A DNA stretch of 64,000 bases from a virus (Duplodnaviria > Caudoviricetes): positions 37,038 to 101,037 of IMG/VR virus record IMGVR_UViG_2939702853_000004, one strand, 5' to 3'. The notes beneath the pieces are model-generated. The model was not told the DNA's origin and searched no databases. It was given only the letters and a program-made list of their open reading frames with translations. Position 1 is the first letter of the stretch; each line of letters begins with the position of its first letter. The position numbers and the translations under genes were made by a program. Below are positions 35,629 to 61,420 of the stretch, piece after piece.

Positions 35629-35751
35629 CTATTTACGTTTTGGAGCAGGTGGACAGTTAAACAATGCCCATGAAGCAGGCTGCACATTAACCACAGACAG
35701 CAATGTAAAAATAGAACCAACAAAACTCATAATAGCAAACTTTTTACTCAT
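35629..35751 (-). CDS. agrD: AgrD-like cyclic lactone autoinducer precursor MSKKFAIMSFVGSIFTLLSVVNVQPASWALFNCPPAPKRK
   Basis: 40-aa ORF not in the track; AAGGAGGTG RBS; overlaps agrB stop; hydrophobic leader, S-W-A-L-F ring candidate, P-x-x-P tail. Confidence 0.85.
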   Translation of the reverse strand: MSKKFAIMSFVGSIFTLLSVVNVQPASWALFNCPPAPKRK

Positions 35752-36301
35752 CACACTCACCTCCTTTCAAGTTAAAGTTAATTAATGTTAGAGATTGTAT
35801 AAGGGCGCTGATAACGAATGCGCTATTATCTATAAAAAATGAAGCAACAACAAAGAACATAGATAAATACTTAAAATATATATGATTTTTCTTTTCGACA
35901 ACTGTGTTATTTTCAATATTGTAAGGAGCATAAATCATTACTACTATAAAGGTAATTGCTTTGACAGTAGTTAAAATCGCTGTTGAGAGTTCAGGAACAA
36001 AACTCAAGACAATCAGTAAAATTACTGAGACAAAAAAACATTTATCTGCATTTTTTATATGGCGACCTCCAGAGACTGTCCTTAGTAAAGAGAATCCTAA
36101 AAGCGCATAGCATGTGTTTAATGTATTATTAAACACACAACCGATAACAATTATAAATATAATAGGTATAATATTACTAATAATAAATCTTGAAACATGT
36201 AAGACATCATCTTCATCAGGAAAATAATTACTGTATTCTGAATTTATAATTTTCTCTTTGATTTTAAACGCAATAATATCCGTAACTGTTTTATTTTTCA
36301 A
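35744..36301 (-). CDS. agrB: AgrB accessory gene regulator B peptidase
   Basis: LRTVSGGRH...C catalytic motif, YAP motif, multiple TM segments. Confidence 0.9.
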   Translation of the reverse strand: MKNKTVTDIIAFKIKEKIINSEYSNYFPDEDDVLHVSRFIISNIIPIIFIIVIGCVFNNTLNTCYALLGFSLLRTVSGGRHIKNADKCFFVSVILLIVLSFVPELSTAILTTVKAITFIVVMIYAPYNIENNTVVEKKNHIYFKYLSMFFVVASFFIDNSAFVISALIQSLTLINFNLKGGECDE

Positions 36302-36956
36302 TGGTTCGTCTCTCCATTTTTATTCCTATAAAGAGAAGATTAAAGAAACATATTGTCCAAACTATAGATCCCAGCAATAAATTATTTATATCATATGTGA
36401 AACCAACTAATATCATTATACATGATGGAATTACGGTAATAAGAATGTTGTTTTTAGTTAGTGAGAATTTAATGGTAAAATTGTAGCTTATAAAACTAAA
36501 CCATAATCTTTTTTGTACAAGTATATTAGCAAGAAGAAAAATTATTATATCACTGCCTATCTGATATGTATATCTTAAAAAATTGTTTGACTTTATATTT
36601 TCAAGAGTTAAACCAGTGAATGGGTACATTACCCACACAGAAAGACTTTGTACAACGAGAAATACAATTAAAGTCAATACTGCGGCAAAAAAAGCATGTC
36701 TGGAAGAGACCCTAAAAAATGCTATCAAACACAGAGTTAAAGTTAGCATGTTAAGAAGCGGGGCAAGATTACTCATCATAGGATCAAGGCTGTAAAAATA
36801 TGTTGCAACTGATATTAAAATATTAGTTATAATTATTTCAAATAAATACTCTTTAATATTTATTCTAAATACAGAAAAAGCAAAATAAAAAACTACAACC
36901 CCCTCGAATAAAGACATTAAAATATAGATGAAAGCACTCATGAGTATTCTCTCCAT
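36291..36956 (-). CDS. multi-TM AgrC-like sensor domain without a histidine kinase domain
   Basis: About 6-7 TM segments, 221 aa, ends right after the last TM; overlaps agrB start. Confidence 0.7.
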   Translation of the reverse strand: MERILMSAFIYILMSLFEGVVVFYFAFSVFRINIKEYLFEIIITNILISVATYFYSLDPMMSNLAPLLNMLTLTLCLIAFFRVSSRHAFFAAVLTLIVFLVVQSLSVWVMYPFTGLTLENIKSNNFLRYTYQIGSDIIIFLLANILVQKRLWFSFISYNFTIKFSLTKNNILITVIPSCIMILVGFTYDINNLLLGSIVWTICFFNLLFIGIKMERRTIEK

Positions 36957-36992
36957 TTCTCTTATAAACTAATATAACAACTCCATACATTC

Positions 36993-37034
36993 ATAATACC
37001 ATCCAAACACTTTCGCGTCAATAAACAAAAATAA
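36993..37034 (-). promoter_or_regulatory. sigmaA promoter of agr-like operon (TTGACG-17-TATTAT, extended TG) with adjacent ATAAACAAAAATAA motif
   Basis: Direct sequence match. Confidence 0.65.
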
Positions 37035-37054
37035 AAAAAAGAATAAGTTTTACC

Positions 37055-38053
37055 TTATTCTAAATTTGGGTACTTATTTAATAGTGTCTCCAAATTCAAA
37101 AACTCCCTAGTATAAATAGTACTCATAATATTGACACCATCTTTTGCTAGACCAACATTAAAATGTCTGCATATTGCCTCTATTTCATCACGTTGCAGTT
37201 TCTTGCTTGTCTTATATATATCTTTAGCCATTTTTAACATACCGGAATTTCTGATGTTTATCGGATTTAAATAATTATATCCTTCCATTAAACCAATAAC
37301 CTTGATTCTTTGTCTAATTGTGTGCGCACTGGTTTGCCCATCATCTTTATATGCTTTTCCAGCTCCTTTTATCACATATGACGAGGGAACAAGTTTTTTA
37401 TCTCTGCCTCCTGCACTTAAAATACTTTTATAAACAGTTTCTTCATTTGCCTCCTGTATGATTCTTACTAACTGTTCTGTTATCGTTACTTTTCTTAATT
37501 CCTCAGTCCCATACTTGTTAATATTTTTTAACAATATTGTTTTATTTATTGCATCAAGGTCTGAAATTTTTAAATTTAATAGTTCACTATTATCTCTGCC
37601 CATTATACCTTCAAATATAGCTTGAACTATAACAGCATCTTGTCTACTTGGTAATCCATATACAATTTTATTTATTTCATCCTCACTAAAGATTAATTTA
37701 TTTGTTTTATCTACAAAAGATTTATAATATTCAGTGTCACTTACAGGTGAAAGAGGATTTAGCTTGTTATCTCTAAGGTCTTGAGATATTGCCCATCTTA
37801 TGTAGCCCTCAATTGTCGCTCCATTTGTGATCGATGCTTGAACAGTTTTTGGCGATAAATAGTTAAGCAGCTCTTCAATTTCAGCTAAATTAAAGTTATA
37901 TAAGTCTTTGCTGTAATTTTTCTCCATACGACCTGCCCTTTTTAAAACCCTTGAAAATACTCCATATGTGTTTTGAGTAAAGTCTTGTAAGAACCTCAAC
38001 TTCTGCTCTTCGTTGTAAAATTCATCGTTGTATATTTCATTAGCCATTATCAT
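37055..38053 (-). CDS. YopR/MrpR(SroF)-like master repressor with degenerate tyrosine-recombinase fold
   Basis: YNEEQKLRFL N-terminus, FEGIMGRDNSELLNLK, IRNSGM without HxxR or catalytic Tyr; directly downstream of YopQ-like gene. Confidence 0.78.
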   Translation of the reverse strand: MIMANEIYNDEFYNEEQKLRFLQDFTQNTYGVFSRVLKRAGRMEKNYSKDLYNFNLAEIEELLNYLSPKTVQASITNGATIEGYIRWAISQDLRDNKLNPLSPVSDTEYYKSFVDKTNKLIFSEDEINKIVYGLPSRQDAVIVQAIFEGIMGRDNSELLNLKISDLDAINKTILLKNINKYGTEELRKVTITEQLVRIIQEANEETVYKSILSAGGRDKKLVPSSYVIKGAGKAYKDDGQTSAHTIRQRIKVIGLMEGYNYLNPINIRNSGMLKMAKDIYKTSKKLQRDEIEAICRHFNVGLAKDGVNIMSTIYTREFLNLETLLNKYPNLE

Positions 38054-54829: not shown

Positions 54830-55120
54830 TTACTTTTCAAATTGTTTAAAGTATTCAGTTAAGTTTTTAGCGTTAATTCTAGATTGGTCAGTTGTTTTTA
54901 TGTTGAGTGAATCCAATAATCTCTGAGCATCAGAACCTGTTAATGTAGGCGTAGCAGCCAGTTGAGTTTTGGACGTTCTTATCCCTTCTGAATTAGCTTT
55001 TCTGTATTTTTTTAAGTCTTTCTTCACATCATCAATAGTAAAGTCGCCTTTATTCATAGCCTTTTGAGCAATCTCTTTCATTCGTTTCAAACCAGTAGAT
55101 TTATTTTCATTATATTTCAA
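54830..55120 (-). CDS. hypothetical phage protein
   Basis: ORF with GAGGTG RBS. Confidence 0.6.
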   Translation of the reverse strand: MKYNENKSTGLKRMKEIAQKAMNKGDFTIDDVKKDLKKYRKANSEGIRTSKTQLAATPTLTGSDAQRLLDSLNIKTTDQSRINAKNLTEYFKQFEK

Positions 55121-56667: not shown

Positions 56668-57099
56668 TTAGGTTTCAGATATTGATAATATCGAGTTCAT
56701 CAGTTTATTTAGTTTATCATTTTCTTTCTTTAAATCATCTAGCAATGGCTTATTATTTTCAATAATTTTGTCTCTTGCCGATATCATTGTGTTCTTGATT
56801 TTTAATTCAGATTCCATTTCCTTGATTTTTTCTTTAAACTCAATTATTTTTTTAGAGTCTGTATTTTTTAAATAATCATTCGAAGAAGACGCTTTTCTTT
56901 CAACAAAATATTTGTTAGTCATATATCGCGCTCTACCCTTTACTGTATTAACCATACCTCTTTCTTCATCAAAAAATACGACCATATTGCATTCTTTGCA
57001 AGCCCATTTACTTCTTTCGTGTACTGATTCATCTATATAGGAAGCTCCACATTTACAATCTACTTGAAAAATAAATTTATTTAATGTCATTGCAATCAC
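56668..57099 (-). CDS. Zn-ribbon plus coiled-coil protein (shares a domain with 40238..40717)
   Basis: CKCGASYI...WACKEC...MTNKYFVER. Confidence 0.65.
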   Translation of the reverse strand: MIAMTLNKFIFQVDCKCGASYIDESVHERSKWACKECNMVVFFDEERGMVNTVKGRARYMTNKYFVERKASSSNDYLKNTDSKKIIEFKEKIKEMESELKIKNTMISARDKIIENNKPLLDDLKKENDKLNKLMNSILSISET

Positions 57100-57105
57100 A
57101 CTCCT

Positions 57106-58122
57106 TTATTTTTTACTAACTATCCCTCTTTGATCTATTGTGTACTTCATATGCCCCTCTTCAACTTCTTTTTTTGTCGAAATTTTAGGGTTACTTTGCA
57201 AAATCTTATTTCTAATTAATTGTAACTTACTATTAGATTTGGATAACTCTGATTTTATTCCTTCAATTAACTCGCAATTTTTACTGATTTCAATATCTTT
57301 TTGAGCAATGATCATTTCTTTTGTAAGAAGTTTATGTTCGATGTCTTTCATTGCTAATTTTAAGCTGAAATATTCTTCTTTAATTTTATTTATGTTATCC
57401 ATTTTGAATAGAACCTGTTTTATACCATACTCTAATTTCTCAAAATTTCTACTATCATTATCTGATGCTCGAAATAAAATGTCGTTTTCCTCTTTTTCTT
57501 TTCTAATATAATTCTCAATCGAACCAAAGTTTTTAATAATAAGATGACATTTTTTATAAATGGCAAGAGGTTTTCTTTTGAGAACTTTGGCGGCTATACT
57601 CATCGCTTCCATCTTTCCTTTTCCTGCATCCGATGCTTTTTCTATAATTCCGTTGAGAACTTCAATTTCTTCTATTGTCCAGCGATTCAACGCCTCTTTC
57701 TTTTGTACGTCGTTCGATACCTCTTCAACTCTAAGCAAATAGTCTCTTACTTTTACTGCCACTTCACTATCCTTTAAAAGCATACCTATGCGCAGCACCG
57801 CTTTTTTAGTTAGCAACTTAACAATGAACTGCGAGCTAGGTAAGGCTTTCTTTAGCTTGAGGAAAGCCTCATCTTTACTAGTAATTGTGTGAACTCCATC
57901 GTTTTCTAATTCCTTTTTGTGACGTGCTAAAATACTAGCGATAGTTTTGTATTCAACTTCGTAATAATCAGCAACAACTTTTGTAGTCATGTGCTGGTTG
58001 TCTGGCAACAAAGATAGTGACTTAACTTTGTTCAATACTTCAACTTTATTTATGTATTGATCTCTAGCGCTTTTGTTTTCCATAAATTCATCGGCAGCTT
58101 GCAATTTCAATAAAGTTCCCAT
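57106..58122 (-). CDS. putative DNA-binding, antirepressor-like phage protein with coiled coil
   Basis: MTTKVVADYYEV...VLRIGMLLKDSEVA..VRDYLL. Confidence 0.6.
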   Translation of the reverse strand: MGTLLKLQAADEFMENKSARDQYINKVEVLNKVKSLSLLPDNQHMTTKVVADYYEVEYKTIASILARHKKELENDGVHTITSKDEAFLKLKKALPSSQFIVKLLTKKAVLRIGMLLKDSEVAVKVRDYLLRVEEVSNDVQKKEALNRWTIEEIEVLNGIIEKASDAGKGKMEAMSIAAKVLKRKPLAIYKKCHLIIKNFGSIENYIRKEKEENDILFRASDNDSRNFEKLEYGIKQVLFKMDNINKIKEEYFSLKLAMKDIEHKLLTKEMIIAQKDIEISKNCELIEGIKSELSKSNSKLQLIRNKILQSNPKISTKKEVEEGHMKYTIDQRGIVSKK

Positions 58123-58142
58123 GTTATTTTCTCCTTTTATGT

Positions 58143-58334
58143 TTAATTAATTATTTTAGTGTTATAAGATTCAATCAATTCTTCAAGTTTCATTATTTCT
58201 GGAGTTTGCAATGGCTGTTTACCATTGATAAACAATGAAAACAATGAATTACTTATAGACAACTTACTAGCGATAAAAGATTTCTCAATTCCCCTATCAC
58301 TGATTAACTGAATTGTTCTTTCTCTCAAAGTCAT
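58143..58334 (-). CDS. XRE-family HTH protein
   Basis: GIEKSFIASKLSISNSLFSLFING. Confidence 0.75.
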   Translation of the reverse strand: MTLRERTIQLISDRGIEKSFIASKLSISNSLFSLFINGKQPLQTPEIMKLEELIESYNTKIIN

Positions 58335-58859
58335 GTACTCACCTCTTTATTAAAATTTATTTTAATCACCTTCTGATATAATACTATCACACCATTATTT
58401 TATTGTCAACATTTAATTATATTTATATGTCAAAATTAATTAGCATGTTTCTACAACAAAAAAACTAGGTATATACGCCCTAGTTTAGTGTGATAAAAGT
58501 AACATTTTATAGAAAATATAGATAAATTCTTTATTGGTTGAGTGCGACTGTAAAAAATGAGAATAGTAAAATAGTAGTTATGTATTATGTATTAAATCTA
58601 TCTATTTGCAATAAAGTTGATTTATATAGTTAATGGTTGTGAAATTTGGGGTGAAATGTAATTAATAATATTTGAAGTTATTGTGTAATCTCTTTTAAGA
58701 GATTAGTTTTTTTGCTTAAAAGTCCTCTGAAGCAATCCATAAAATCTAATATTATGTGATAAAAAGGAATTATTTGTAGAAAGATGGATTGAAAATATTG
58801 ACAAATGGGAAAAAGCCCTATATTGTTGATGGTAATTAAATATAGGGAGGCTTTAGTCA

Positions 58860-59723
58860 ATGAATGTTATGGAAAATGATTTGCTTAGTGTAACTGATTT
58901 AGACACAATAGTTGTTTATATTAGGATGTGTTATAATAACGAGAATTGGGAGATGTTAGAAAAGCTTTCTGATCATCTTTCTAATTGTACTTACGACGAA
59001 ATTAAGTACAATAAAGACCAACAAGACATACATACTAAAAATAAAACTAAAAGCCCTTTAGTTTACTATTATGGGTATGGTCACCTAATGAAAGGTATCG
59101 CACTACAGAAGATGAAAAAATACAGTGAATCAGCGGTATGTATAAACAATTATTCTGAATTGGGCTGGTTTGATGGTTTGGACGAAGAGGGGAAAGCGAT
59201 AGTAAAAGACTTTAAATTTAACGCAAAAGCTAACAGGTACACTTTAGAGGTGCTGAAGGGCAATAAAGCTGTAATAAATGAGTACATTGATTATCTTGAA
59301 AATGATCCCGCGGAATACTTACCAGCCTATATAACAATTCTAGAAGCTGCTTTAGATTATAATTGGGATGTAGACCATTATCTTAATAAATTATCTACCC
59401 GTGCATCTTGGTTATCTGATTTTGAAGATTCCGCAAATATTAATTATTATGTCAACTATATGTACCATCTTGCATTGTACAATTTTTGCAAAGAAAGATT
59501 TTCTGATGCCTTACATAGCGTGATAAAAGCTTTGCAATCATCAGTTAAAATTAGAGAGGGAAAGTTTTTTCTAAAATGTGTGGCTCTTTTTGAGTTACAT
59601 CGTAATTTTGCAACATCAGAACAAATTAAGACTTACGTAGACTTTCTAACAATAATATTGGAAGGAGAGTTTAAAAATGAAAAAAACATTGCTCTTATTG
59701 ACAATCGCATTCGGCCTATTTAG
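58860..59723 (+). CDS. AloR-like (RRNPP) TPR peptide receptor lacking the N-terminal HTH
   Basis: PLVYYYGYGHLMKG...YSELGWFDGLDEEG...ANRYTLE.L.GN...ILEAA recalled as a Paenibacillus AloR C-terminal signature; followed by propeptide. Confidence 0.75.
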   Translation: MNVMENDLLSVTDLDTIVVYIRMCYNNENWEMLEKLSDHLSNCTYDEIKYNKDQQDIHTKNKTKSPLVYYYGYGHLMKGIALQKMKKYSESAVCINNYSELGWFDGLDEEGKAIVKDFKFNAKANRYTLEVLKGNKAVINEYIDYLENDPAEYLPAYITILEAALDYNWDVDHYLNKLSTRASWLSDFEDSANINYYVNYMYHLALYNFCKERFSDALHSVIKALQSSVKIREGKFFLKCVALFELHRNFATSEQIKTYVDFLTIILEGEFKNEKNIALIDNRIRPI

Positions 59724-59799
59724 TTTTATACCAGTAAACGGTAATTTTAATGGTGGAACTATTGTACCTAATAATCACGGGGTTAATATGTGCTTATAA
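59677..59799 (+). CDS. secreted signalling propeptide (AloP-like) MKKTLLLLTIAFGLFSFIPVNGNFNGGTIVPNNHGVNMCL
   Basis: 40-aa ORF not in the track; GAAGGAG RBS inside receptor 3' end; signal peptide and C-terminal HG motif. Confidence 0.8.
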   Translation: MKKTLLLLTIAFGLFSFIPVNGNFNGGTIVPNNHGVNMCL

Positions 59800-59809
59800 A
59801 ATGCAACTT

Positions 59810-59839
59810 AAGGACAACTCATTTGAGCTGTCCTTTTTT
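59810..59839 (+). terminator. intrinsic terminator after propeptide
   Basis: AAGGACA.CTC/GAG.TGTCCTT stem plus T-tract. Confidence 0.75.
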
Positions 59840-59935
59840 AATTGTTTTTGTAGTATCGGTACAGATCAAGCAATATAGGATAAATTATAATAAAAAAGAC
59901 TTCTTCATGAAGTCTTAAATTGAAAATATTTTATT

Positions 59936-60589
59936 TTAGCATCCACAATATTTTTCTTGAAACATCCTCCACTTATTTGATATGCTTCCGGGCAACTCAG
60001 TCCAGTGCGTTTTGCGTCCACATTCCCAACATTTGAATACTCCCTTGTCATACCCCTTAAACCTAAAATGGTGCTCAAAGTCTTTAACTGCCATTAAATT
60101 TCTAAAATCTTGCTCACTTGGTTTACGGGAATAATAATCTTTAATACTCTTCCAGTCATCTATATTGTTACTCCAAAAATGTTCCGAAACCCATCTGTCT
60201 TGCTTATCTTTTCCTATTTTCGTGTCTCCAGAAAGAGTTAAATTAACATAAGAAAAATCAACTTCTTCTTCATCTACAACTCTATCAATGTACCCAATTC
60301 TTTTTTTAAAATTTTCCAAATATGTAGTTGTCTCGATGTCTTCAAAAAATGACTTTATTTTAGCCCACTCTTCGGGGAACAGGTTTTGGTATAATTCTTT
60401 TGATGTTGTTACGTATCCACCATTCTTCAGCGCATCTTCTTTGTCTTTGGCCTGATATCCGAAAGTTAGCATAATCTCATGATCGGAACAGGGAAGTATC
60501 TTATTGACTGCTTTTAAATTAATATTGCCATAGCCAAATTTTTCGGGTTGGTAGTATTCAATCGTTTTGTTTATTAATTCTGTATTCAT
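59936..60589 (-). CDS. hypothetical phage protein with C-terminal Cys motif
   Basis: CWECG...YCGC; GAGGTG RBS. Confidence 0.7.
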   Translation of the reverse strand: MNTELINKTIEYYQPEKFGYGNINLKAVNKILPCSDHEIMLTFGYQAKDKEDALKNGGYVTTSKELYQNLFPEEWAKIKSFFEDIETTTYLENFKKRIGYIDRVVDEEEVDFSYVNLTLSGDTKIGKDKQDRWVSEHFWSNNIDDWKSIKDYYSRKPSEQDFRNLMAVKDFEHHFRFKGYDKGVFKCWECGRKTHWTELPGSISNKWRMFQEKYCGC

Positions 60590-60611
60590 TTTATCACCTC
60601 TTGAATATATT

Positions 60612-60986
60612 TTAGAATTCTAGATATTTATCATCAACATTAACTCCAAATGTTAAATCATATGGAACATCAACAAATAAATATCCATCCTTAATTTGAT
60701 AGTCATGCTCAAGCACGTATTTAACTGGTATTGCGCTTTCTGACTCCCACAGTTCCGCATCTTTTGCGAAAACAGCAGATAGAACAGAATTGGCTATACC
60801 CATTAAACTGTGACCATTGTCGCTTACATATACATAAAATGGCTGTAACTCACTAGGCAACTTTGGATAAGTTTTTGATTTATCTACCATATGTTTTATT
60901 GCTTGAATACTTTTTCTCACGTCATCACCCCAAATATTAAAGTAAAAGACTGGTTTTATACACTTTTGATAAGTACAGTTCTTCAA
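60612..60986 (-). CDS. hypothetical phage protein
   Basis: ORF coupled to upstream gene. Confidence 0.6.
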   Translation of the reverse strand: MKNCTYQKCIKPVFYFNIWGDDVRKSIQAIKHMVDKSKTYPKLPSELQPFYVYVSDNGHSLMGIANSVLSAVFAKDAELWESESAIPVKYVLEHDYQIKDGYLFVDVPYDLTFGVNVDDKYLEF

Positions 60987-61420
60987 AGAGATACTTTAAT
61001 TGTTGCTTCCTTTATCCCCTGAATTATCTTCTCAAGATGTTTAATAGCAATAACATCGACTCTCAATTCAATCCATTCTTTAATTGAAACAGGCGGCTTT
61101 GAATTAGTATGATACTCTTCCTCAAGCATATCTTTAACAATTGACACATAGTCAATAGTAATATTACCGTAAGAGCCTTTTGGGTTATTTCCAATGGTTA
61201 AATAGTATCCTGCTGACTCCAAATCTTCTATCATATCAAAACCATCTTTGACTAATTCAAATGAATGCTCGTCTTCTTTGTAATAAACTATAATCTCCTG
61301 ATCTTCATCTACAGAAACTCTGGGATGTTTAATAAACTGTGTATAAGTATCAGTGTCATCAAGTTGCTTTTCTTCAACTTGCTCCATTGTAATATACATC
61401 AATGTTTTCATTTTCTTCAC
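60983..61420 (-). CDS. hypothetical phage protein
   Basis: ORF with RBS. Confidence 0.65.
   Translation of the reverse strand: MKKMKTLMYITMEQVEEKQLDDTDTYTQFIKHPRVSVDEDQEIIVYYKEDEHSFELVKDGFDMIEDLESAGYYLTIGNNPKGSYGNITIDYVSIVKDMLEEEYHTNSKPPVSIKEWIELRVDVIAIKHLEKIIQGIKEATIKVSL

What the first reader, a model, noticed from the sequence alone, without database searches (positions are those of the whole stretch)
58494..59839. Second peptide system: HTH-less AloR-like receptor with an HG-motif propeptide
Seen: a plus-strand island in a minus-strand region, starting next to boundary site 58494. It contains a 287-aa helical-repeat protein, an overlapping 40-aa secreted peptide ending IVPNNHGVNMCL, and a terminator. 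Established: Paenibacillus Alo systems are RRNPP-like receptor-propeptide pairs whose receptors are longer and begin with an HTH. Inference: this receptor keeps only the peptide-binding half, so it may act Rap-like through protein contacts, poison host AloR dimers, or pair with the divergent 63-aa XRE protein (58143..58334) as a split receptor. With the agr module, the phage would carry two chemically different signals.
Basis: partly seen in the sequence, partly recalled or inferred. Interest (0 to 1): 0.72.

Follow-up and report, generated by a model that had tools for sequence, protein, structure and literature searches.

The report
HTH-less Alo signalling cassette on prophage
A large SPbeta-like prophage of a Paenibacillus carries an intact two-gene peptide-signalling cassette (a receptor without a DNA-binding domain, plus its secreted pro-peptide); it belongs to the catalogued 'short' branch of the Alo quorum-sensing family, so it is a new member of a known kind whose output step is still unknown.

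Summary
At 58860-59723 (+) there is a 287-aa all-helical TPR-like protein. A 40-aa signal-peptide ORF (59677-59799) overlaps its 3' end and finishes ..NNHGVNMCL. The pair has its own promoter-like site, two Shine-Dalgarno sites and a terminator hairpin, and it is a plus-strand island in a minus-strand prophage.

It is not a decayed full-length gene. An in-frame TAG lies two codons before the ATG, and a 190-position profile of the AloR N-terminal half finds nothing upstream. The protein also falls inside a well-supported clade (SH-aLRT 99) of 38 short (253-293 aa) relatives and one 370-aa relative.

The short form is not new. Table S1 of Voichek et al. 2020 already lists short AloR groups (Alo7, 15, 17, 18; 277-297 aa) whose AloP peptides carry the same HG core (NHG or YHG). 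The window protein is 50% identical to AloR17 of P. polymyxa CR1, which also sits in a prophage. The AloR family has been reported on (pro)phages, and this scan has already reported HTH-less Alo cassettes on other Paenibacillus elements.

The idea of a split receptor with the 63-aa neighbour is not supported. How an HTH-less AloR passes on the signal remains open; a Rap-like protein contact is the leading inference.

Verdict: real, intact, a new member of a known kind; moderate interest.

The parts
58798..58826 (+). promoter-like site TTGACA-17-TATTGT, 34 nt upstream of the receptor ATG
   Evidence: 10 of 12 consensus positions; the number of such sites in the region is not above shuffles, so this is a candidate only
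58845..58850 (+). Shine-Dalgarno GGGAGG of the receptor gene; the in-frame TAG at 58854-58856 closes the frame upstream
   Evidence: read from the sequence; stop-to-stop frame of 288 codons
58860..59723 (+). aloR-like receptor gene, 287 aa, TPR-like solenoid with no HTH; a member of the short Alo7/15/17/18-type clade
59677..59799 (+). aloP-like propeptide gene, 40 aa. It has an N-terminal signal-like segment and a C-terminal ..NNHGVNMCL, overlaps the receptor gene by 47 nt, and has AAGGAG 9 nt upstream.
   Evidence: conserved counterparts; published AloP7/15/17
59810..59839 (+). intrinsic terminator: 10-bp stem with one mismatch, followed by a T-run
   Evidence: -12.7 kcal/mol, z -3.6
58494..58509 (.). 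copy of the prophage-wide palindrome TAAAA-N6-TTTTA in the 525-bp, 24.6% GC intergenic region. It is a neighbour feature, about 290 nt upstream of the cassette promoter.
58143..58334 (-). divergent 63-aa HTH-like gene, first gene of the leftward operon; not shown to belong to the cassette
   Evidence: (no family hit better than E 2e-4)
57106..58122 (-). 338-aa antirepressor-like gene downstream of the 63-aa gene (context)
   Evidence: tblastn to annotated phage antirepressors, E down to 4e-26; weak ORF6N and regulator hits

Best explanation
The region is an intact, self-contained accessory cassette ('moron') of a prophage longer than 100 kb with 33% GC. The prophage is SPbeta-like (it has an MrpR-type repressor) and sits in a Paenibacillus of the polymyxa group. 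The cassette is an aloR-aloP pair of the short, HTH-less branch of the Alo (RRNPP-like) peptide quorum-sensing family.

Shown:
- It is homologous to catalogued short AloR proteins.
- It has a TPR-like fold.
- The overlapping propeptide gene is conserved, with a signal-like N-terminus and an NHG-core C-terminus.
- There is no trace of an HTH-coding half.
- Its base composition matches the phage.

Inferred by analogy with AloP13, AloP15 and other RRNPP systems:
- The 40-aa propeptide is exported by Sec and cut outside the cell to a short C-terminal peptide containing NHG, about NHGVNMCL or a sub-fragment.
- This peptide is re-imported by an oligopeptide permease and binds the concave face of the 287-aa receptor.

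Inferred with lower confidence (about 0.4):
- Having no DNA-binding domain, the receptor passes the signal on through a protein-protein contact, as Rap proteins do. The effect would be to tune a host or phage regulator according to the density of lysogens.
For: Homology and architecture:
- 225 homologues fall into two length classes, about 260-300 aa and about 440-480 aa. The best hits are short and align end to end.
- In the ML tree, 38 short proteins and one 370-aa protein form one clade (SH-aLRT 99), with the window protein inside it.
- The N-terminus is conserved at the common start (LD.LV.ML..AYS.E.W).
- A search of 151 genomes of the same family shows short forms in several genera, scoring above the long forms.

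Link to the published family:
- Table S1 lists AloR7 at 285 aa, AloR15 at 291 aa, AloR17 at 293-297 aa and AloR18 at 277-294 aa. Their peptides end ..YHGANH..SNHGVFSYTA..NNHGANS and ..DSHGIF.
- P0154 (297 aa, record CP006941.2) is followed by exactly the AloP17 peptide published for strain CR1, and is 50% identical to the window protein over 289 residues, E 1e-102.
- The nearest relative (62% identity) has a propeptide ending ..YNHGANM.

Not a remnant:
- The N-terminal-half HMM scores -1.0 bits on the + strand upstream, against 256 bits for a control paralogue.
- There is an in-frame stop two codons before the ATG.

Fold:
- The AF2 model has pLDDT 92 and consists of 14 helices plus a C-terminal hairpin.
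- PlcR (Z 12.5), NprR (12.3) and phage Rap (11.2) are among the top structural matches.

Host and phage context:
- The host has about 22 full-length AloR paralogues with overlapping propeptides, several followed by spo0E.
- The window also holds an MrpR-type repressor and AgrB.
- The cassette has GC 32% and GC3 29%, like the phage genes; the host Alo7 orthologue has 43% and 47%.
Against: - No expression, processing or binding data exist for this or any other short AloR. Only long AloR13 has functional data, and AloP15 has only MS detection.
- The structural matches to RRNPP receptors are tied with generic TPR proteins (LGN, KLC), and Foldseek gave nothing at E <= 0.001. The fold alone therefore does not show peptide sensing.
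- The propeptide tail ends in MCL, extending beyond the usual end of the motif, and no AXA-type signal-peptidase site is evident.
- No partner protein is identified. Neighbourhoods of short-clade genes share no universal partner.
- No spo0E gene is found on the prophage contig.
Confidence: 0.8

Rival explanations
1. Interference module. The HTH-less receptor acts as a dominant-negative partner of full-length host AloR proteins (mixed oligomers with fewer HTHs), or as an intracellular sponge for host NHG-type peptides. Either way the prophage would rewire host Alo signalling rather than run a pathway of its own.
For: The host has about 22 full-length AloR paralogues and a chromosomal short Alo7 orthologue whose peptide ends ..YHGANH, close to the phage peptide core. 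The short form matches the whole C-terminal 280 aa of long AloR, which would include any C-terminal oligomerisation surface.
Against: Identity to host paralogues is only 20-36%, which is low for hetero-oligomerisation. The short clade is old, diverse and mostly chromosomal, with its own cognate peptides; this fits an autonomous sensor better than a parasite of long AloR. No multimer modelling tool was available to test interfaces.
Confidence: 0.22
2. Split receptor. The divergent 63-aa HTH-like protein (58143..58334) supplies the DNA-binding half and the 287-aa protein supplies the peptide-sensing half.
For: The 63-aa protein can be threaded on positions 6-58 of the AloR HTH profile. In 4 of 27 short-clade loci a 115-126-aa XRE gene lies immediately upstream and divergent.
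Against: The similarity is not significant: about 1-2 bits, E 0.14-0.33, in the six-frame test, and 7.2 bits when searched alone with hhalign probability 11%. There is no Pfam or NCBIfam HTH hit and no relation to the 115-aa XRE family. The loci that do have an XRE neighbour lack a propeptide gene, so they have a different architecture. The nearest relatives L044 and L046 have no such neighbour. No separate AloR N-terminal half is encoded on the prophage contig. The 63-aa gene is the leader of an antirepressor-like operon.
Confidence: 0.06
3. Non-functional remnant: a 5'-truncated aloR pseudogene with a fortuitous downstream ORF.
For: It is shorter than the studied AloR13. Scattered truncated or frameshifted Alo copies do exist in the host and its relatives.
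Against: The frame is intact, with SD, promoter-like site and terminator. The start position and N-terminal motif are shared by 36 aligned relatives. The short clade is monophyletic. No HTH remnant is present. The propeptide is conserved with its receptor down to the 62%-identity relative. The AF2 model is confident over the whole length.
Confidence: 0.03
4. Not a signalling pair: a TPR scaffold or chaperone protein followed by an unrelated small secreted or membrane peptide, for example a bacteriocin-like or lysis-related product.
For: No curated family model hits either protein. The structural matches are generic TPR proteins. The peptide contains a Cys near its end.
Against: It shows clear sequence homology to AloR proteins, including experimentally studied long members of the same superfamily. 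The operon layout is the same as in published Alo loci, and secreted AloP15 fragments were detected by MS.
Confidence: 0.04

Closest known systems
Alo17 (AloR17-AloP17) of Paenibacillus polymyxa, especially the CR1 variant X809_23745 (Voichek et al. 2020, PMC7425212, Table S1)
   Same: The receptor is 297 aa and lacks an N-terminal HTH segment. It is 50% identical end to end. An overlapping propeptide has a signal sequence and an H-G core near its C-terminus. It is also located inside a prophage, just beyond the holin/lysin genes.
   Different: The peptide tail differs (..DSHGIF or repeated ..NNHGANS, against ..NNHGVNMCL). The carrier phage is of a different type (P2-like tail genes, against an SPbeta-like element with MrpR). 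GC is 38% against 32%.
Alo15 and Alo7 of P. polymyxa (short AloR of 291 and 285 aa)
   Same: Same short clade and same operon design. AloP15 ends ..PSNHGVFSYTA, close to the window's ..VPNNHGVNMCL, with a tail after the NHGV core. AloP15 fragments were found in culture medium by MS. The host of this prophage has an Alo7 orthologue on contig C2.
   Different: [quoted passage not shown] They are only about 36% identical to the window protein (the Alo7 orthologue).
AloR13-AloP13 of P. polymyxa ATCC 842, the only functionally studied Alo system
   Same: Homologous C-terminal TPR-like domain. The propeptide is processed to a C-terminal peptide with an H-G core (SHGRGG), as stated in PMC7425212.
   Different: AloR13 is 467 aa, with an N-terminal HTH plus about 120 further helical residues. 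It acts on transcription of a neighbouring spo0E-like gene. The window protein has neither the HTH nor a spo0E neighbour.
Rap-Phr cassettes of SPbeta-like Bacillus phages (phi3T, phi105; PDB 8rsv, 8rte)
   Same: An HTH-less TPR receptor plus a secreted pro-peptide, carried as an accessory cassette by a large temperate phage. Structural similarity is Z 11.2. This is a plausible working analogy: output through protein binding.
   Different: There is no detectable sequence relationship; no Rap or TPR family model hits the protein. The window protein lacks the Rap N-terminal three-helix bundle alignment: RapH aligns only through its TPR part. No target is known.
Brevibacillus phage SecTim467 gp69 (Jenstvirus), a long AloR-like protein
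   Same: The only hit in the 50,697-record phage collection: 31.5% identity over 82% of the query.
   Different: It is 474 aa with an N-terminal HTH and is preceded by a Spo0E gene. The annotated downstream 45-aa ORF has no signal-like N-terminus.

Membership tests
Alo (AloR-AloP) quorum-sensing family of Paenibacillaceae | Sequence homology of the receptor to catalogued AloR proteins | tested here: met
   50% identity, E 1e-102, to the 297-aa protein of CP006941.2. That protein's downstream ORF equals the published AloP17 of strain CR1. There are 29 paralogue hits in the host, E down to 1e-53.
Alo (AloR-AloP) quorum-sensing family of Paenibacillaceae | Short ORF (32-50 aa) immediately downstream of or overlapping aloR, with an N-terminal hydrophobic signal segment | tested here: met
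   40-aa ORF overlapping by 47 nt, with an SD and a hydrophobic N-terminus. Counterparts are conserved in relatives.
Alo (AloR-AloP) quorum-sensing family of Paenibacillaceae | C-terminal TPR or TPR-like peptide-binding domain | tested here: met
   AF2 model with pLDDT 92, an all-alpha repeat solenoid. Best structural matches are TPR proteins, including PlcR and NprR. No Pfam TPR model hits, as also reported for most AloR proteins in PMC7425212.
Alo (AloR-AloP) quorum-sensing family of Paenibacillaceae | N-terminal HTH DNA-binding domain (drawn in the family scheme, Fig 1A of PMC7425212) | tested here: not met
   No HTH in the protein or upstream DNA. The same is true of the catalogued members AloR7, 15, 17 and 18 (277-297 aa), so this feature does not define the family as published.
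Alo (AloR-AloP) quorum-sensing family of Paenibacillaceae | Peptide secretion, processing and peptide-dependent response | not testable with these tools
   Needs MS, binding and transcriptome experiments.
Short (HTH-less) Alo clade (Alo7/15/17/18 type) | Placement inside the short clade, with the common start and N-terminal motif | tested here: met
   The clade of 38 short and 1 mid-length proteins has SH-aLRT 99; an inner clade of 36 all-short proteins has 99. The start lies within about 10 residues of those of 36 aligned relatives.
Short (HTH-less) Alo clade (Alo7/15/17/18 type) | Propeptide C-terminus with an [N/Y/H/S]-H-G-x-[G/N] core | tested here: met
   The window has NNHGVN followed by MCL. 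About 20 relatives and the published AloP7/15/17 share the core.
Rap-Phr (RRNPP, HTH-less phosphatase/anti-activator) | Sequence or profile membership in the Rap family, and an N-terminal three-helix bundle | tested here: not met
   No Pfam or NCBIfam hit of any kind. The structural alignment to RapH covers only its TPR part, residues 115-369. It may work like a Rap, but it is not a Rap.
AimR-AimP arbitrium | Homology to AimR, with an HTH and an aimX-type downstream target | tested here: inconclusive
   No AimR appears among the sequence or structure hits listed, and there is no HTH. Absence from capped lists does not exclude a remote relationship within the RRNPP superfamily.

The most novel reading that the evidence does not exclude
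The whole short Alo clade is a Rap-like class of protein-binding peptide sensors in Paenibacillaceae. In this SPbeta-like prophage the cassette sits back to back with a small-regulator/antirepressor operon. It would use the density of lysogens (peptide level) to gate a protein partner, either the phage's own induction circuit or a host developmental regulator. That would give the phage a second signalling channel, chemically distinct from its agr-like module.
Probability: 0.3. Interest if true: 0.6.

Novelty: new member of a known kind. Interest (0 to 1): 0.42.

Why it matters
Temperate phages that carry peptide signalling (arbitrium, and Rap-Phr in SPbeta-like Bacillus phages) are a model for how viruses make social decisions. 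This case shows that a Paenibacillus SPbeta-like prophage has filled the same accessory niche with an Alo-type cassette whose receptor has no DNA-binding domain, alongside an agr-like module. It also brings out something the literature lists but does not discuss: a sizeable, old, monophyletic branch of Alo receptors lacks the HTH. The only mechanism shown for the family (transcriptional control by AloR13) therefore cannot apply to that branch. Finding the partner of any short AloR would explain a whole branch of quorum sensing in an agriculturally important genus. It would also show what phages gain by carrying such a cassette.

Tried and rejected
- Curated family libraries gave no usable hit for the receptor, the peptide or the 63-aa protein. 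Pfam, NCBIfam and PHROGs were searched; the best hit was YaaC at E 0.003, below its cut-off.
- Megablast of 57000-61000 against 50,697 phage records found no match.
- tblastn of the receptor found only the long SecTim467 homologue.
- An IMG/VR scan with the single protein found no relative.
Organism-named loci therefore could not be collected that way; names came from cluster look-ups instead.
- Foldseek against the PDB gave nothing at E <= 0.001.
- VIA-align gave RRNPP receptors tied with generic TPR proteins, so structure cannot discriminate the family.
- Rfam found no match in 58000-60100.
- Repeats in the 525-bp intergenic region gave only short, chance-level pairs.
- A decayed HTH half upstream was rejected.
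- A separately encoded AloR N-terminal half on the prophage was rejected; only one generic 74-aa HTH ORF elsewhere on C10 scored E 8e-4.
- A spo0E-like gene next to the cassette was rejected; 9 matches (8 above the curated cut-off) exist in the genome and none is on C10.
- A universal conserved neighbour of short AloR genes was not found in 27 loci.
- tblastn of the 63-aa protein against phages found no match.
- dN/dS was not attempted, because the nearest relative is only 62% identical and synonymous sites would be saturated.
Full report
**1. What is in the sequence**

- The ORF list and the raw sequence show a 287-aa ORF at 58860..59723 on the + strand.
- GGGAGG lies 9 nt before its ATG. An in-frame TAG lies two codons upstream, so the frame cannot be extended.
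- A 40-aa ORF at 59677..59799 overlaps the last 47 nt of the receptor gene in another frame. It has AAGGAG 9 nt before its ATG. It begins with a basic-then-hydrophobic signal-like segment and ends ..NNHGVNMCL.
- A hairpin at 59810-59835 followed by a T-run folds at -12.7 kcal/mol, z -3.6.
- A TTGACA-17-TATTGT site lies at 58798-58826. It is only a candidate promoter, because such matches are not enriched over shuffles.
- Among 41 ORFs of 150 aa or more in the window, only this one and one other are on the + strand.
- The site at 58494-58509 is one of 35 perfect TAAAA-N6-TTTTA palindromes, against 1.2 expected.

**2. Where it lies**

- The window is G000:C10:91449-155448.
- Contig C10 switches from about 47% GC to about 33% GC near position 55,000 and stays there to its end at 155,605. 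This marks an element of more than 100 kb.
- The window encodes an MrpR-type master repressor at 37055..38053 (Pfam MrpR_N_CB 85 bits, MrpR_C_cat 45 bits).
- Just downstream of it is an AgrB protein at 35744..36301 (72 bits). DnaB-like and other helicases are also present.
- MrpR is the master repressor of SPbeta (PMC10516654), so the element is an SPbeta-like prophage.
- The cassette has GC 32% and GC3 29%, like neighbouring phage genes. The closest host paralogue has 43% and 47%. It is therefore a long-term resident of the phage lineage, not a fresh capture from this host.

**3. What family it is**

- Curated libraries are silent.
- The host genome holds 29 paralogous stretches. About 22 are full-length genes of 457-487 aa with an N-terminal HTH. 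Most have an overlapping 36-50-aa signal-peptide ORF, and several are followed by a spo0E-like gene. This is the published architecture of Alo systems (PMC7425212).
- Several host propeptides are identical or nearly identical to P. terrae or P. polymyxa AloP entries in that paper's tables. The host is therefore a Paenibacillus of the polymyxa group.

**4. The short form is a clade, not an accident**

- An exhaustive HMMER search of 1.84 billion representatives gave 225 hits. The 150 best listed are bimodal in length, about 260-300 aa and about 440-480 aa.
- The best hits are short and align end to end. The long ones carry an extra N-terminal stretch of about 170 aa.
- In a maximum-likelihood tree of the shared domain (130 rows), 38 short proteins and one 370-aa protein form one clade with SH-aLRT 99. 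The window protein is inside it. Other short rows are scattered singly among long clades and look like truncations or fragments.
- Thirty-six short proteins share the start position and the N-terminal motif.
- A six-frame search of 151 genomes of the same family finds short forms (open frames of about 270-311 aa) as the top-scoring hits in several genera.
- A 190-position profile of the long forms' N-terminal half scores 256 bits on a control paralogue. On the + strand of 57001-59000 it scores only -1.0 bits.
- No free-standing copy of that N-terminal half exists on the prophage contig.

**5. It is already in the catalogue**

- Table S1 of Voichek et al. lists AloR7 (285 aa), AloR15 (291 aa), AloR17 (293-297 aa) and AloR18 (277-294 aa, no peptide).
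- AloP7 ends ..YHGANH, AloP15 ends ..PSNHGVFSYTA, and AloP17 ends ..NNHGANS (repeated) or ..DSHGIF.
- AloP15 fragments were detected by MS.
- The main text does not discuss the missing HTH: 'HTH' occurs once, in a figure legend. No other paper in the library mentions these loci.
- P0154 (297 aa, on record CP006941.2) is followed by exactly the AloP17 peptide published for strain CR1. It is 50% identical to the window protein over 289 residues.
- In two genomes P0154 lies inside a prophage, beyond the holin/lysin/tail-fibre genes.
- The nearest relative is 62% identical and comes from a JGI metagenome contig. Its gene call is too short. Its propeptide ends ..YNHGANM.
- Across about 20 short-clade loci the propeptide ends in [N/Y/H/S]-H-G-x-[G/N]-x. 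The 'HG motif' is therefore a clade signature.
- The host's own short paralogue on C2 is the Alo7 orthologue.
- The AloR family has been reported on phages and prophages (Bernard et al.).
- Earlier agents of this scan reported HTH-less Alo cassettes on other Paenibacillus phage-like elements.

**6. Structure**

- With the 36-sequence alignment, AlphaFold2 gives a confident model (pLDDT 92, pTM 0.87) of 14 helices plus a short C-terminal beta-hairpin.
- Foldseek finds no match at E <= 0.001.
- VIA-align ranks PlcR (Z 12.5, rmsd 4.6 over 206 residues), NprR (12.3), phage phi105 Rap (11.2), pLS20 Rap, ComR and RapH among the top rows. These are tied with generic TPR proteins such as LGN.
- PlcR aligns through its whole TPR domain (residues 71-286). 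The short AloR therefore has the size of a complete RRNPP peptide-binding domain.
- The fold agrees with the assignment but does not prove it.

**7. The 63-aa neighbour**

- It has no family hit better than a PHROG match at E 2e-4 and no tblastn hit in phages.
- Threading on the AloR HTH profile gives 7.2 bits when it is searched alone, with hhalign probability 11%, and about 1-2 bits (E 0.14-0.33) in the six-frame search. This is not significant.
- It is followed in the same operon by a 338-aa protein that matches annotated phage antirepressors (E 4e-26).
- Four of 27 short-clade loci do have a divergent 115-126-aa XRE gene immediately upstream. Those loci lack a propeptide. Their XRE proteins are unrelated to the 63-aa protein.
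- The nearest relatives of the window cassette have no such neighbour.
- The split-receptor idea is therefore unsupported, though not excluded.

**8. How it most likely works**

Shown:
- It is an intact receptor-propeptide operon of the short Alo clade.

Inferred from AloP13 (active C-terminal 6-mer SHGRGG) and from the AloP15 MS fragment that ends just before NHGVFS..:
- The propeptide is exported and cut to a C-terminal NHG-containing peptide, which is re-imported and binds the TPR groove.

Inferred with less confidence:
- Without an HTH, output must be through protein contacts, as with Rap.
- Candidate partners are unknown.
- The autonomous promoter and terminator, and the orientation opposite to the bulk of phage genes, fit a cassette that could be expressed from the prophage. 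This is inference only.

**9. Verdict**

It is a new member of a known kind, a prophage-borne short Alo system. The open question is how any HTH-less AloR signals, and that question applies to the whole clade rather than to this locus alone.

Noticed in passing
window 2466-63298 (35 sites; e.g. 58494-58509): The palindrome TAAAA-N6-TTTTA occurs 35 times, against 1.2 expected. By position and number it recalls, but need not equal, the SPBRE operator of the SPbeta master repressor MrpR (PMC10516654). An MrpR homologue is encoded at 37055..38053.
   Followed up: partly
window 35744-38053 (-): An MrpR-type repressor gene (332 aa) is followed directly by a 221-aa protein with no family hit and an AgrB homologue (185 aa). 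An agr-like module sits where SPbeta-type phages often carry lysis-lysogeny regulators.
   Followed up: partly
window 57106-58334 (-): A leftward operon consists of a 63-aa HTH-like protein and a 338-aa antirepressor-like protein (tblastn E 4e-26 to annotated Ant proteins). It lies back to back with the Alo cassette across a 525-bp intergenic region of 24.6% GC.
   Followed up: partly
window 58686-58713 (+): A weak AT-rich hairpin (AATCTCTT..AAGAGATT) followed by a T-run lies about 90 nt upstream of the cassette promoter. It could end a short upstream transcript or insulate the cassette. It was read by eye, was not folded, and was not found by the terminator scan.
   Followed up: no
L011 4496-4852, L064 6964-7311, L066 5085-5831, L061 5413-5673: A subset of short AloR genes has no propeptide gene. 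Instead they have a divergent 115-126-aa XRE-family gene (HTH plus a conserved C-terminal helical tail) immediately upstream. This may be the peptide-less Alo18 type and a second architecture of the short clade.
   Followed up: partly
L045/L046 6707-10062 (CP006941.2 and a second Paenibacillus genome): AloR17-AloP17 of P. polymyxa CR1 lies within a prophage end, beyond the holin / GH25 lysin / tail-fibre genes. The flanks differ between the two genomes. Short Alo cassettes therefore recur as phage cargo.
   Followed up: partly
L012 3396-7555: In Paenibacillus sp. DS2015 a short AloR (293 aa) with a propeptide ending ..FNHGMNH sits between spoIVB (Peptidase_S55) and spo0A. This hints at a link to sporulation control.
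   Followed up: no
G000 contigs C2:218221-219702, C21:38495-39700, C5:88384, C1:360391: The host carries several fragmented or frameshifted Alo receptor copies (N-terminal-only and C-terminal-only pieces) beside about 22 intact ones. This indicates rapid turnover of the family.
   Followed up: partly
L001 3076-4899 (Brevibacillus phage SecTim467): The phage's long AloR-like gp69 (474 aa, with HTH) is preceded by a Spo0E gene. The annotated 45-aa ORF overlapping its end has no signal-like N-terminus, so its cognate peptide, if any, is not that ORF.
   Followed up: no
P0157, P0011, P0162, P0166, P0169 (public annotations): Several short, HTH-less AloR proteins are named 'DNA-binding protein' in NCBI records. 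The name appears to be carried over from long relatives and is probably misleading.
   Followed up: no
L044 578-1456: The gene call of the closest relative (245 aa) starts too late. The frame is open about 47 codons further upstream and encodes the conserved N-terminal motif.
   Followed up: yes
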